From Methylobacter sp. (lineage in GTDB: Bacteria > Pseudomonadota > Gammaproteobacteria > Methylococcales > Methylomonadaceae), in assembly GCA_030684815.1 (NCBI GenBank), contig JAUXXQ010000196.1, positions 13,930 through 77,929 of the forward strand: 64,000 nucleotides of DNA. Direction: 5' to 3'. The translations under genes and the position numbers were made by a program. The notes under the pieces are model-generated. The model made no database searches, was not told the origin of the DNA, and worked only from the letters and a program-made list of their open reading frames with translations. Shown here in pieces: positions 22,406 through 52,684 of the stretch (the stretch's first letter is position 1; each line of letters starts with the position of its first letter).

Positions 22406-22514
22406 GGAGCCATTAGATTGTGTAGAATCGACATGTGTAGCAAGCCAAAAAAACAATTGAAACAGAAAGGGAAAAATATAACACAGGCACTATAATCATG
22501 CGGGTAGCTTTTAC

Positions 22515-22745
22515 CAAAAAAGTCCGTAAAGCCCCTTCCTTCAGGTGGGGGATGTAAGGATGCTCTTGATTTATTTTGCTTGTTCATCTAGTGTTCTCTC
22601 CGTTGGGTGCGCTGTTGCTGCGTATCTCCTGCCATCAGGCTCACACTGAGATGGCGTGAAGTAAGACGATTTTCAGAGTCGTCCCCTTCGGGCATGAAGG
22701 GCTGCACTAAGGAATCCCCTTGCTTTAGCTGGGGGAGGATGTCAA
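22515..22745 (+). mobile_element. Non-autonomous IS200/IS605 (IS608-like) mini-element, 231 bp, no transposase or TnpB ORF
   Basis: TTAC target at 22511-14; AAAG at 22528-31 before the hairpin CCCCTTCCTTCAGGTGGGG; right end GAAT-CCCCTTGCTTTAGCTGGGG-GAGGATG-TCAA. Confidence 0.88.
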
Positions 22746-32348: not shown

Positions 32349-32494
32349 TAGCCGGTTTTGTCATTCACGGCGCGCCTTACCTGAACAGCAAAAAAAATCA
32401 CCGGTTAAGGTGATTTGAGAAAAAAAGCGCTTTAGGCGGCATGAAGTTTTATTCTTCGTGATCTTCGCGTGCTTCGTGGTGACAATCTTTTTAC

Positions 32495-32554
32495 CAAAAA
32501 AGTCCGTAAAAACCCTTCCTTCAGGTGGGGGGATGTAAGGATGCTCTTGATTTA
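32495..32554 (+). mobile_element. Solo left-end fragment of the IS608-like element
   Basis: TTAC|caaaaaagtccgtaaa...ccttccttcaggtggggggatgtaaggatgctcttgattta, near-identical to 22515-22573; no right end follows. Confidence 0.8.
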
Positions 32555-50841: not shown

Positions 50842-51657
50842 TTAAGGCAGCGCCGGCAAGAATTTATCATTGCGCACCCGCACTTGTCCGGTGATGGTTT
50901 GAGTCACATTAGGGTCGTCGCGCAAACGGCCCGTTAAGGTAATTTTAACGTTGCGGACATATAAACACGCTGGATCGGGTGCAGTGCCATCACGGTCACA
51001 TTCATTACATCCACCAACCTCGGCACTATTGCATAAATCATCAGCGGGATCGGAATTTTTTAATCTAGCATCCATCACGGTCACGTTAAGTTCGGTTTCG
51101 ATTAATTCAAACAACGGCTCAGTGTTAGGGTTGGGAATAATTTGAACCTCGGGTTCGGTGATGGTTTCCCAACTACCGTCTGTGCAGTTTATATTAGTAT
51201 TACCACTCTCTCTCATGCTTAATATGCCAGCACTGTTCAAGCGAAAACCAAAGCGTTGACTTTGAACATCAACCGGATTGCTATCATTTGCGTTATACGA
51301 ATAAACAATACAATTACCAGTGCCTCCGTCATAATCGTGCACGTCAATATCGGTTGTTGCTGCAAAAAAAGGATTATTTTTTAAGAAATCCAAATTAGCC
51401 GCTGGATCAGATGTCACAAAGCCTGCCCGTCGAATATCCCGCACCATAATATCCATCATGGCACGCATATCCTGATTTAAGCGGGAAAGTTGCTGGTTAT
51501 CGGTTTGGCCTCTAATCGATGTGGTAAAAACCTGGAGACCACCGGCAACAACAATCATGCCGACCAATAAGCCGATCATAAGTTCGATTAAGGTGATACC
51601 GGTTTGTTGTTTATGATGTATTAAGGGCATGCTTCGTAACCTCCCATTGAGCCGCAA
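50842..51657 (-). CDS. pilW: PilW-like minor pilin
   Basis: QTG|ITLIELMIGL and DIRRAGF; true start may be the downstream MPLIHH. Confidence 0.87.
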   Translation of the reverse strand: MRLNGRLRSMPLIHHKQQTGITLIELMIGLLVGMIVVAGGLQVFTTSIRGQTDNQQLSRLNQDMRAMMDIMVRDIRRAGFVTSDPAANLDFLKNNPFFAATTDIDVHDYDGGTGNCIVYSYNANDSNPVDVQSQRFGFRLNSAGILSMRESGNTNINCTDGSWETITEPEVQIIPNPNTEPLFELIETELNVTVMDARLKNSDPADDLCNSAEVGGCNECDRDGTAPDPACLYVRNVKITLTGRLRDDPNVTQTITGQVRVRNDKFLPALP

Positions 51658-52109
51658 ATTCTTACACGCCCGAGTGTACTAACTTCGACTCCGGCATTAA
51701 AGTTGGTTGTAGTGATTGTAGCGATACCTTTATTGGCCGTACCTCTTACTGCTTCAAAAGTAGTCATCCCACCGGTAAAATCAGTTGTCAGGCTGGTTGA
51801 CGCAAAATCGCTACCATTGACTGTTTTCGGCAAAACGCCATCGGAAGCTGCAAGCGCAGGGTTGGTATCAATGGTGTAGTTCCAGTTACTACCCGTCGTA
51901 AAAGTCACTCTAACTGGTCTGTTACGTTTAATAGATTCCGCCCGCGCCCAGCGCAGATCGGCTAATACAGTTTCCGCTACACCTACAATCCGTTGCTTTT
52001 CCAGCATTGAATTAAACGAGGGCGCTGCCATCGCTGCCAGGATAGCAATAATTGCGACCACTATCATGGTCTCAATCAGGGTAAAACCGGTGTTTTTTAT
52101 GCTATTCAT
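51621..52109 (-). CDS. fimT: FimT/GspH-like minor pilin
   Basis: NTG|FTLIETMI, LRWARAESIKRN and LGRVRIC. Confidence 0.88.
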   Translation of the reverse strand: MNSIKNTGFTLIETMIVVAIIAILAAMAAPSFNSMLEKQRIVGVAETVLADLRWARAESIKRNRPVRVTFTTGSNWNYTIDTNPALAASDGVLPKTVNGSDFASTSLTTDFTGGMTTFEAVRGTANKGIATITTTNFNAGVEVSTLGRVRICGSMGGYEACP

Positions 52110-52131
52110 GATATTGGCCTGGTATTTTTAT

Positions 52132-52506
52132 CCATGAGTAGCGTAAAACCCCGCCGTTCAGGGCGGGGATGTAAGCGGCTCAGTTTCGTATTTCTCATCG
52201 TGTTAATCCCTTCCATTGTGTTAAAACCGACTCTTGTTACTATCAGAGGACGCTATCGGCTCTCTCAATGACGGCAACTTAAGTTTTAAAAGGCTTCAAA
52301 ATCACAACTCGCGAAAACCAAGCAAACAGTGTGAAGCCTAAATAACCGTTTTAAAAAGTAAAATAACCGTCGGGCAGACGGGGCTAGCCTGCGAAATGAG
52401 CGGTACAGTATGCCGTCAGCAGCAGAAACCAGTGGGCAGTAGCGATACAATCCCACTCCTGATTCACATCAGGAATCTCCATGCTTTAGCAGGGGGAGGA
52501 TGTCAA
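52132..52506 (+). mobile_element. Second non-autonomous IS608-like mini-element, 375 bp, with a tnpB-tail remnant
   Basis: TTAT at 52128-31; AAAA at 52145-48 before the hairpin CCCCGCC-gttcag-GGCGGGG; right end GAAT...GCTTTAGC...GGAGGATGTCAA; TnpB-tail-like peptide TVGQTGLACE. Confidence 0.85.
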
Positions 52507-52684
52507 CAGTTTAGGCCATTTACGGGAAATAACATCCCTTGATGATCCATAGGTTGTAAAAGATAAAGTCCACGCTTAGCACAAAAGCAACGAAATTTTC
52601 GTGTTTTTTCGTGCTAAACGCGGACAATTTTTGGTATATCTTTTTCAGGAAATCGCCCTATTTCTATTTTCGCGGAGTAGTTAC

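What the first reader, a model, noticed from the sequence alone, without database searches (positions are those of the whole stretch)
52132..52506. Second IS608-like mini-element with co-varied target/guide (TTAT/AAAA versus TTAC/AAAG) and a tnpB-tail remnant
Seen: the 17-nt spacing from cleavage site to hairpin is identical to element 1, but the last base of both target and guide has changed together. The right end is again GAAT...TCAA. There is an extended -10-like TGtTACTAT (52235-43) with TTGTGT upstream, and a residual TVGQTGLACE...GISML*QGEDV tail typical of tnpB ends. Established: IS608 target choice is set by guide-target base pairing. Inference: a natural retargeted sub-family and a second putative trans omega-RNA with guide CAGTTTAGGCC....
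Basis: partly seen in the sequence, partly recalled or inferred. Interest (0 to 1): 0.72.

Follow-up and report, generated by a model that had tools for sequence, protein, structure and literature searches.

The report
Gene-less IS605-family mini-transposon with guide-RNA scaffold
This 375-base stretch is a protein-less miniature copy of an IS200/IS605-family jumping gene that inserts next to TTAT and still carries the folded guide-RNA (omega RNA) module of its parent; this kind of element is already known, and this genome has no matching transposase or nuclease genes.

Summary
Window 52132-52506 is a real, discrete 375-bp non-autonomous IS200/IS605-family element (a PATE or "mini-IS").

- **Ends.** It sits 3' of TTAT. 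The left end has a 13-nt spacer, the guide AAAA and a 20-nt hairpin. The right end has GAAT, a hairpin, 6 nt and TCAA.
- **Target follows guide.** Across 111 distinct left ends in 12 genomes of the genus, AAAA goes with TTAT (54 by script) and AAAG with TTAC (37). This holds whichever hairpin type the element carries; only about 3 ends are truly discordant.
- **RNA module.** The last 146 nt match the non-coding stretch between the tnpB stop and the right end of full-length elements (divergent tnpA + tnpB) in congeners. They fold into 40 conserved pairs, 13 with compensatory changes against 3.6±1.1 in shuffles. This is an omega-RNA scaffold.

- The true tnpB tail is about 7 codons in another frame. 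TVGQTGLACE is out of frame, and GISML* is only the right-end hairpin.
- The TGtTACTAT "-10" is a copy-specific 3-nt insertion.
- This genome and its source metagenomes hold no cognate tnpA or tnpB, so the RNA has no partner here.

The literature already describes guide-set targeting in IS608, the TTAT target of IS606, mini-IS elements and PATEs that encode omega RNAs. This is a new member of a known kind.

The parts
52128..52131 (+). TTAT: target tetranucleotide and left cleavage site. It is flank, not part of the element; it would be the TAM for a cognate TnpB.
   Evidence: Every AAAA-guide left end in 12 genomes is preceded by TTAT, with unrelated sequence further upstream.
52132..52506 (+). 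Whole non-autonomous IS200/IS605-family element (PATE / mini-IS, 'B' type), 375 bp, with no gene.
   Evidence: The ORFs inside it have no Pfam match.
52145..52148 (+). Left guide (GL) AAAA, immediately 5' of the hairpin foot and 13 nt after the cleavage site.
   Evidence: For the role of GL in IS608 see PMC3201880.
52149..52168 (+). Left subterminal hairpin (IPL) CCCCGCC-GTTCAG-GGCGGGG, followed by the family-wide ATGTAAG motif (52169-52175).
52183..52360 (+). Middle segment found only in mini-elements. From 52240 on it is shared with a third ('C') subfamily. It is absent from the full-length elements and has only weak structure support. It holds the copy-specific TGtTACTAT at 52235-52243.
   Evidence: 21 predicted pairs, only 2 with compensatory change.
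52361..52506 (+). Omega-RNA-type scaffold: 146 nt homologous to the region from the tnpB stop to the right end of full-length elements. This copy keeps 39 of the 40 consensus pairs.
52367..52387 (+). Decayed last codons and stop of tnpB (PSGRRG*). The same bases form helix 1 of the scaffold.
52473..52476 (+). Right guide (GR) GAAT, 5' of the right hairpin.
   Evidence: By my recollection IS608 has the same GR, but the paper read has no occurrence of GAAT.
52477..52498 (+). Right subterminal imperfect hairpin (IPR). It is the last helix of the scaffold.
52503..52506 (+). TCAA right cleavage site and last bases of the element. Counting from the foot of the family-consensus hairpin, the 3' tail AGGATG + TCAA is 10 nt, as in IS608.
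   Evidence: the flanks diverge immediately after TCAA; PMC3201880.
52507..52526 (+). Flank that would serve as the 16-20 nt guide of an omega RNA (CAGTTTAGGCCATTTACGGG). It has no second near-match in the genome.

Best explanation
The stretch is a palindrome-associated, protein-less derivative of an IS605/IS606-like insertion sequence. A Y1 (HUH) TnpA supplied in trans would move it as single-stranded DNA.

Inferred mechanism, by analogy with IS608:
- TnpA binds the two subterminal hairpins on the top strand.
- The four bases 5' of the left hairpin (AAAA) pair with TTAT. This sets both the left cleavage site and the insertion target.
- GAAT, 5' of the right hairpin, pairs with the terminal TCAA.

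Shown here:
- The element kept the parent's last 146 nt, a multi-helix RNA scaffold that ends at the transposon boundary. In the parent this is the omega RNA that guides TnpB to the TTAT-flanked empty donor site.
- In this genome the family is old (copies 79-92% alike) and orphaned, because no cognate tnpA or tnpB is present.

Conclusion (inference): this copy is most likely an immobile relic. Any transcript from it would have no matching nuclease.
For: - **Anatomy** at the stated coordinates.
- **Multi-copy family** with sharp boundaries.
- **Guide and target tally over 111 distinct left ends:** AAAA/TTAT 54 and AAAG/TTAC 37.
- **Target follows guide within both hairpin types:** H1+AAAG gives TTAC 26, H1+AAAA gives TTAT 22, H2+AAAA gives TTAT 31, H2+AAAG gives TTAC 10.
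- **Full-length parents in congeners:** same left end and TTAT target, divergent tnpA (136-138 aa, Y1_Tnp, E 1e-44) and tnpB (386-393 aa, OrfB_IS605 + TNB domain). The closest solved structures are ISDra2 TnpB and ISHp608 TnpA.
- **Scaffold:** 98.5% of cells paired; 13 pairs with compensatory change against 3.6±1.1 in shuffles (0 of 500 reach it); slid controls give at most 2.
- **This copy's fold:** MFE -50.6 kcal/mol, z = -3.06.
- **No B-type tnpA or tnpB in the genome**, apart from one deleted remnant. The source metagenomes cover only the element ends.
- **Possible insertion polymorphism:** another family copy lies where related strains are about 378 bp shorter.
- **Literature:** PMC3201880, PMC10055086, PMC2993954.
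Against: - No empty site could be found for this particular copy; synteny breaks in congeners.
- Transcription was not shown. The only RNA contigs belong to other copies or organisms, in metatranscriptomes that may contain DNA.
- The genome is a 235-contig assembly, and contigs break at these repeats, so a hidden tnpA or tnpB cannot be fully excluded.
- The 5' limit of the omega RNA is unknown.
- Helices could in principle also form in the single-stranded DNA intermediate.
- A few left ends are discordant: L167 (AAAG with TTAT) and two decayed copies (AAAA with TTAC).
Confidence: 0.85

Rival explanations
1. One reading: a live, self-promoted trans-acting omega-RNA cassette. It would be transcribed from about 52250 and loaded onto a TnpB encoded elsewhere in this genome, directing cleavage at TTAT + CAGTTTAGGCC....
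For: - The scaffold is almost intact in this copy, with 39 of 40 pairs kept.
- An extended -10-like motif exists upstream.
- PATEs that encode omega RNAs for trans use are discussed in PMC10055086.
- Family members appear in metatranscriptome contigs.
Against: - The -10-like motif is a private 3-nt insertion of this copy and falls below the scan threshold.
- The only TnpB in the genome is a different lineage: 29% identity over the C-terminal half, TTAC ends, and an ORF that runs into the right-end hairpin, so its scaffold differs.
- The source metagenomes have no cover over the B-type tnpB.
- Singleton substitutions are as frequent in paired as in unpaired columns (0.36 against 0.28 per column). 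That gives no sign of selection since insertion.
Confidence: 0.08
2. The conserved folds serve something other than TnpB guidance. Examples: structure in the single-stranded DNA transposition intermediate, or an RNA taken over by the host as a small RNA or terminator. Helix 1 read on the minus strand looks like a terminator.
For: - A terminator-like site on the minus strand at 52381-52367.
- TnpA does act on folded single-stranded DNA (PMC3201880).
Against: - TnpA needs only the subterminal hairpin and guide, not six further helices.
- The module sits exactly where omega RNAs lie, from the 3' end of tnpB to the right-end boundary, in the full-length elements.
- G-U (G-T) wobble pairs occur at 35-67, 47-57 and 80-100. 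Their complement on the other strand would be A-C mismatches, so the folds belong to the tnpB-sense strand, not to a minus-strand terminator. This does not separate RNA from the top-strand DNA intermediate.
Confidence: 0.05
3. It is a REP/BIME-type repeat moved by one of the RAYT-like Y1 proteins of this genome, not an IS605 derivative.
For: Several RAYT-like Y1_Tnp open frames exist in the genome: C79, C96, C5, C44.
Against: - The two ends are asymmetric, with IS608-type guide and cleavage tetrads.
- Both the left end and the right 146 nt match bona fide tnpA+tnpB elements in congeners.
Confidence: 0.02

Closest known systems
IS608 (ISHp608) of Helicobacter pylori: the mechanistic model for the IS200/IS605 family
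   Same: - Same end layout: the target and left cleavage tetranucleotide lie outside the element.
- A 4-nt guide sits 5' of the left hairpin foot.
- TCAA lies 10 nt 3' of the right hairpin foot (PMC3201880). GAAT as the right guide is from my memory of IS608.
- The TnpA of the congener parent matches ISHp608 TnpA (2a6m, E 7e-22).
- From memory only (not found in the paper library): the IS608 right-end sequence is nearly the same as GAATCCCCTTGCTTTAGCTGGGGGAGGATGTCAA.
   Different: - Target and guide are TTAT/AAAA, not TTAC/AAAG.
- The cleavage site lies 17 nt (16 in some subfamilies) from the hairpin foot, against 19 nt quoted for IS608.
- The parent has divergent tnpA and tnpB, whereas as far as I recall IS608 has them co-directional.
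- This copy has no genes.
IS606 and mini-IS606 / mini-IS605 of H. pylori
   Same: - IS606 inserts 3' of TTAT.
- The mini versions keep 100-150 bp of each end of a ~2 kb element and differ from one another by 10-20% (PMC2993954).
- That is the same picture as here: 375 bp, copies 79-92% alike.
- As far as I recall, IS605 and IS606 have the divergent tnpA and tnpB seen in the parent here.
   Different: - Different host lineage (an environmental proteobacterium from groundwater metagenomes).
- The middle 180 bp are not derived from the parent's ends.
PATEs with omega RNAs in Geobacillus stearothermophilus (ISGst families; Meers et al. 2023)
   Same: - Protein-less IS605-family elements with conserved left and right ends.
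- Clade-specific TAM and guide motifs.
- They 'often encode omega RNAs' that a TnpB encoded elsewhere would have to use (PMC10055086).
   Different: Here no cognate TnpB or TnpA is in the genome, so the trans partner is missing. No expression data exist for this organism.
ISDra2 TnpB-omega RNA complex (PDB 8h1j, 8bf8/8exa)
   Same: - The congener TnpB aligns over its full length with ISDra2 TnpB (E 8e-48 for 8h1j, 1.6e-47 for 8bf8).
- The RNA module ends at the right-end boundary and contains the right-end hairpin.
   Different: - From memory, the ISDra2 TAM is TTGAT and its omega RNA lies largely inside the tnpB ORF.
- Here about 120 nt of the scaffold lie downstream of the tnpB stop.
Rfam HgcC (RF00062)
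   Same: Weak match at 52432-52519. It shares the terminal hairpin and the ...GAGGAxGUCA tail.
   Different: 16.5 bits against a gathering score of 50, E = 0.16, so it is not a member. The match is a lead that HgcC itself may be an archaeal right-end/omega-RNA fragment.

Membership tests
IS200/IS605 family, non-autonomous derivative (PATE / mini-IS) | Subterminal imperfect hairpins at both ends on the same strand; no terminal inverted repeats and no target-site duplication. | tested here: met
   Hairpins at 52149-52168 and about 52477-52498, both on the + strand. The flanks ...GGTATTTTTAT and CAGTTTAGGCC... share no repeat. The hairpins are conserved, with compensatory changes.
IS200/IS605 family, non-autonomous derivative (PATE / mini-IS) | The left cleavage and target tetranucleotide is recognised by a 4-nt guide 5' of the left hairpin, so the two co-vary. 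| tested here: met
   AAAA/TTAT 54 and AAAG/TTAC 37 of 111 left ends, with one AAAT/TTAA case. The rule holds within both hairpin types.
IS200/IS605 family, non-autonomous derivative (PATE / mini-IS) | Right end: a guide 5' of the hairpin, and the cleavage site as the last 4 nt of the element. | tested here: met
   GAAT at 52473-52476 and TCAA at 52503-52506. Both are invariant or nearly so in 21 copies, and the flanks diverge right after TCAA.
IS200/IS605 family, non-autonomous derivative (PATE / mini-IS) | No transposase gene of its own; a related full-length element with a Y1 TnpA exists. | tested here: met
   No Pfam or blastx hit inside the element. Full-length tnpA+tnpB elements with the same ends are in congeners G005 and G012. 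None is in the own genome.
IS200/IS605 family, non-autonomous derivative (PATE / mini-IS) | Evidence of mobility: occupied versus empty sites. | tested here: inconclusive
   No empty site was found for this copy. For copy C99b, related strains carry 54 nt where this genome has 432, which is about 378 bp shorter, but the junction letters were not visible.
TnpB omega RNA (reRNA) | Lies at the 3' end of or downstream of tnpB, on the tnpB strand, and ends at the right-end boundary so that the flank supplies the guide. | tested here: met
   Bases 52361-52506 align at 77-83% with the region from the tnpB stop to TCAA in L062-L065.
TnpB omega RNA (reRNA) | Conserved secondary structure supported by covariation. 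| tested here: met
   40 pairs in 9 helices, 13 with compensatory change; no shuffle reached this (0 of 500) and slid controls gave at most 2.
TnpB omega RNA (reRNA) | Transcribed. | tested here: inconclusive
   Metatranscriptome contigs cover equivalents of 52377-52506, but they come from other copies with other flanks. This copy shows nothing.
TnpB omega RNA (reRNA) | A cognate TnpB is present to bind it. | tested here: not met
   All TnpB hits in the genome are the TTAC-type lineage, 29% identical. The only B-type trace is a deleted remnant at C124. The source metagenomes have no cover over B-type tnpB.
TnpB omega RNA (reRNA) | Guides TAM-dependent DNA cleavage. | not testable with these tools
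   This needs a plasmid-interference or TAM-library assay.
Rfam HgcC (RF00062) | Score at or above the family's gathering threshold. | tested here: not met
   16.5 bits against 50.

The most novel reading that the evidence does not exclude
The roughly 20 orphan B/C-type copies may still be transcribed, and their scaffolds may be accepted by the resident, only distantly related TTAC-type TnpB. This could work through the shared terminal hairpin, which is 92% identical over the last 36 nt. The result would be a dispersed pool of trans guides uncoupled from their own TAM, a step toward array-like guide storage. Alternatively, the host may have taken the RNAs over as small RNAs.
Probability: 0.04. 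Interest if true: 0.65.

Novelty: new member of a known kind. Interest (0 to 1): 0.27.

Why it matters
Mostly it settles the annotation: this intergenic stretch is a mini-transposon plus a second, unrelated MITE, not a regulatory region.

Its modest wider value is as a natural data set. In one genus the same two hairpin types each occur with guide AAAG and with guide AAAA, plus one AAAT case, and the insertion site follows the guide every time. That is a field confirmation of the IS608 retargeting rule. It also offers a ready series of related TnpA, TnpB and omega-RNA sets with TTAC and TTAT TAMs for anyone studying how TAM specificity co-evolves with the transposon guide.

It also documents omega-RNA-bearing PATEs outliving their nuclease in a genome.

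Tried and rejected
- **Rfam.** Nothing at gathering thresholds over the whole window. The permissive scan gave only a sub-threshold HgcC hit.
- **Protein remnants.** blastx of the element against the resident TnpB and the congener TnpA and TnpB found nothing significant. This rejects the quoted peptide remnants.
- **Empty site.** The orthologous loci in G045 and G012 lose synteny at the start of the pilin-like gene. Other metagenomes lack the unique flanks.
- **Resident IS200-like TnpA (C91).** Rejected as the obvious mobiliser. It is about 30% identical to the B-type TnpA and its hairpins differ (CCACCAGC...GCTGGTGG). Cross-mobilisation was not tested.
- **Middle segment (52240-52360).** Tested for structure; only 2 pairs show compensatory change.
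- **Second genomic target for the would-be guide.** None found.
- **IS608 end sequences.** Searched for in the paper library to confirm a remembered resemblance; not found.
- **Selection since insertion.** No signal.

Full report
**Observation.**
- TTAT lies at 52128-52131 and the element starts at 52132.
- A 13-nt spacer is followed by AAAA (52145-52148), the hairpin CCCCGCCGTTCAGGGCGGGG (52149-52168) and ATGTAAG.
- At the other end come GAAT (52473-52476), an imperfect hairpin, GATG and TCAA (52503-52506).
- Element 1 (22514-22745) has the same layout with TTAC and AAAG.
- This is not chance. A search of the window's own assembly (235 contigs, 4.29 Mb) gives about 48 matches. Nine of 41 related genomes, all in the same genus, hold copies.
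- Copies stop being alike immediately upstream of TTAT and immediately downstream of TCAA.

**Target and guide.** I collected every GGATGTAAG-anchored left end in the own genome and fetched 80 more from 11 congeners.
- Of 111 distinct left ends, a simple parser gives AAAA with TTAT 54 times and AAAG with TTAC 37 times.
- Most of the remaining 20 are register errors that are concordant on inspection. Causes are an extra or changed base at the hairpin foot, and a 12-nt spacer in place of 13 in some subfamilies.
- Truly discordant are L167 (AAAG with TTAT) and two visibly decayed copies with AAAA next to TTAC. One of these is a truncated third left end in this window at about 32494-32554.
- A few ends have TAAC or TCAC flanks. 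One copy pairs AAAT with TTAA.
- The sequence upstream of the tetranucleotide differs at every site, so these are independent insertions.
- The rule does not depend on lineage. Each of the two main hairpin types occurs with both guides, and the target follows the guide: H1+AAAG gives TTAC 26, H1+AAAA gives TTAT 22, H2+AAAA gives TTAT 31, H2+AAAG gives TTAC 10.
- This matches the published IS608 mechanism. Cleavage sites are read by 4-nt guides 5' of the hairpin feet, and changes in the left guide retarget insertion predictably (PMC3201880).

**What the element derives from.** The own genome has only one TnpB lineage.
- It is a 364-aa, tnpB-only element with TTAC/AAAG ends whose ORF runs into the right-end hairpin (...GIPVL*). 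Several near-identical copies break the assembly at contig ends.
- The mini-element shares only about 34 nt of the left hairpin region and the last 36 nt with it.
- Two congeners carry ~1.8-kb elements with a B-like left end (TTAT, AAAA). They have a 136-138-aa Y1 transposase read toward the left end, and a divergent 386-393-aa TnpB.
- The TnpB matches ISDra2 TnpB structures along its whole length (E 8e-48 for 8h1j). The TnpA matches ISHp608 and ISDra2 TnpA.
- The gene order is, as far as I recall, that of IS605/IS606 rather than IS608. TTAT is the published target of IS606, whose mini derivatives in H. pylori look much like this family (PMC2993954).

**The right-hand module.** Positions 230-375 of the mini-element (window 52361-52506) align at 77-83% with the stretch that runs from the tnpB stop codon to TCAA in the full-length elements.
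- An alignment of 21 copies from five genomes, three of them full-length, gives an RNAalifold structure of 40 pairs in nine helices.
- 98.5% of cells are paired. 13 pairs carry compensatory changes against 3.6±1.1 in column shuffles, and none of 500 shuffles reached this. At most 2 appear when partners are slid by 1-3 columns.
- G-U wobble pairs assign the folds to the tnpB-sense strand.
- The window copy keeps 39 of the 40 pairs and folds to the same structure on its own (-50.6 kcal/mol, z = -3.06).
- A structured RNA gene that starts near the tnpB stop and ends exactly at the right-end boundary is the definition of a TnpB omega RNA.
- No Rfam family covers it. The nearest is a sub-threshold HgcC match that shares the terminal hairpin and tail.

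- The real tnpB remnant is about seven codons, CCG TCG GGC AGA CGG GGC TAG at 52367-52387 (PSGRRG*, compare ...NQPSDRRG* in G012). GISML* is just the hairpin.
- The TGtTACTAT motif arises from a TTA insertion and a C>T change private to this copy. Its -35 matches 3 of 6, and the scan does not report it.
- The middle 180 bp are mini-specific, shared with a third subfamily, and only weakly structured.

**Is it alive here?**
- tblastn with the congener TnpA and TnpB finds no B-type genes in this genome, apart from a deleted remnant at C124 interrupted by another MITE.
- The only IS200-type TnpA (C91 type) is about 30% identical to the B-type TnpA and has different hairpins.
- In the four groundwater metagenomes that hold the window at high depth, contigs pile up on both ends of the full-length reference. 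They leave tnpB and tnpA uncovered at 80% likeness or more, apart from low-depth fragments that probably belong to other organisms.
- B-type copies are 79-92% alike, whereas the TTAC-type minis are 94-98% alike.
- Singleton substitutions are no rarer in paired than in unpaired columns.
- The family therefore looks old and stranded here.
- Transcription of this copy could not be tested. Two metatranscriptomes contain contigs of other family members, one running from the scaffold into a different flank.
- The would-be guide, CAGTTTAGGCCATTTACGGG, has no second near-match in the genome.

**Mobility.**
- No empty site could be found for this copy. Congeners lose synteny at the start of the pilin-like gene, and a related strain in a hydrocarbon metagenome already has the insertion.
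- For another copy (C99, L004 1505-1879), contigs of related strains in three runs carry 54 nt where this genome has 432. The difference of about 378 bp fits absence of the 375-bp element, but I could not read the junction.

**Comparison and verdict.** Each ingredient is already described:
- guide-directed targeting and retargeting in IS608;
- the TTAT specificity of IS606;
- mini-IS605 and mini-IS606;
- PATEs that 'often encode omega RNAs' needing a TnpB in trans, and clade-specific TAMs (PMC10055086).

The finding is a correct call of an ordinary, well-understood kind of element, with some details wrong. What it adds is a clean natural 2×2 of hairpin type by guide within one genus, and an example of omega-RNA-bearing PATEs that have outlived their nuclease.

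Noticed in passing
window 52514-52657: The right flank is a separate 144-bp MITE with terminal inverted repeats (GGCCATTTCCGGGAAA...TTTCAGGAAATSGCC), an internal hairpin and TA(A) flanks. The genome holds about 40 copies. The would-be omega-RNA guide runs into its left repeat. Loose ends of metagenome contigs at 52513 and 52657 fit these boundaries.
   Followed up: partly
window 32494-32554: This is a third IS608-type left end (TTAC type). It is cut off after about 60 bp and is followed by a fragment of the same MITE. Its guide has decayed from AAAG-C to AAAA-A while the flank is still TTAC.
   Followed up: partly
G000:C35:47985-49335 (own genome, outside the window): Full-length tnpB-only element of the TTAC/AAAG type with a 364-aa TnpB ending ...GIPVL* inside the right-end hairpin. 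Several 95-100% identical copies sit at contig ends. This copy's flank reads TCAC, not TTAC. No cognate tnpA was found, although these copies look young.
   Followed up: partly
L114 (G043:C51:12186-12306): A single left end with guide AAAT sits next to TTAA. This would be a third guide/target pair obeying the same last-base pairing rule.
   Followed up: no
G000:C91:100-3400 (own genome): A different IS200-like element whose hairpins are CCACCAGCTTTAGCTGGTGG. Its tnpA copies are disrupted (an in-frame stop in one, an inverted partial duplication beside another).
   Followed up: partly
window 52432-52519: Sub-threshold match to Rfam HgcC (16.5 bits, E = 0.16), sharing the terminal hairpin and the GAGGAxGUCA tail. 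This suggests HgcC may itself be an archaeal IS605 right-end/omega-RNA fragment.
   Followed up: no
window 52240-52360: The mini-specific middle segment is shared by the B and C subfamilies. It has one stem (GGCTTCA...TGAAGCC against GACTTCA...TGAGGTC) with compensatory changes. Its origin and role are unknown, and it is absent from the full-length elements.
   Followed up: partly
window 51621-52109 (- strand) and congeners L177, L178: A pilin-like gene with a prepilin-type N-terminus (162 aa) starts 22 bp from the element. In two congeners a divergently read type IV pilin gene lies where this genome has the two MITEs.
   Followed up: no
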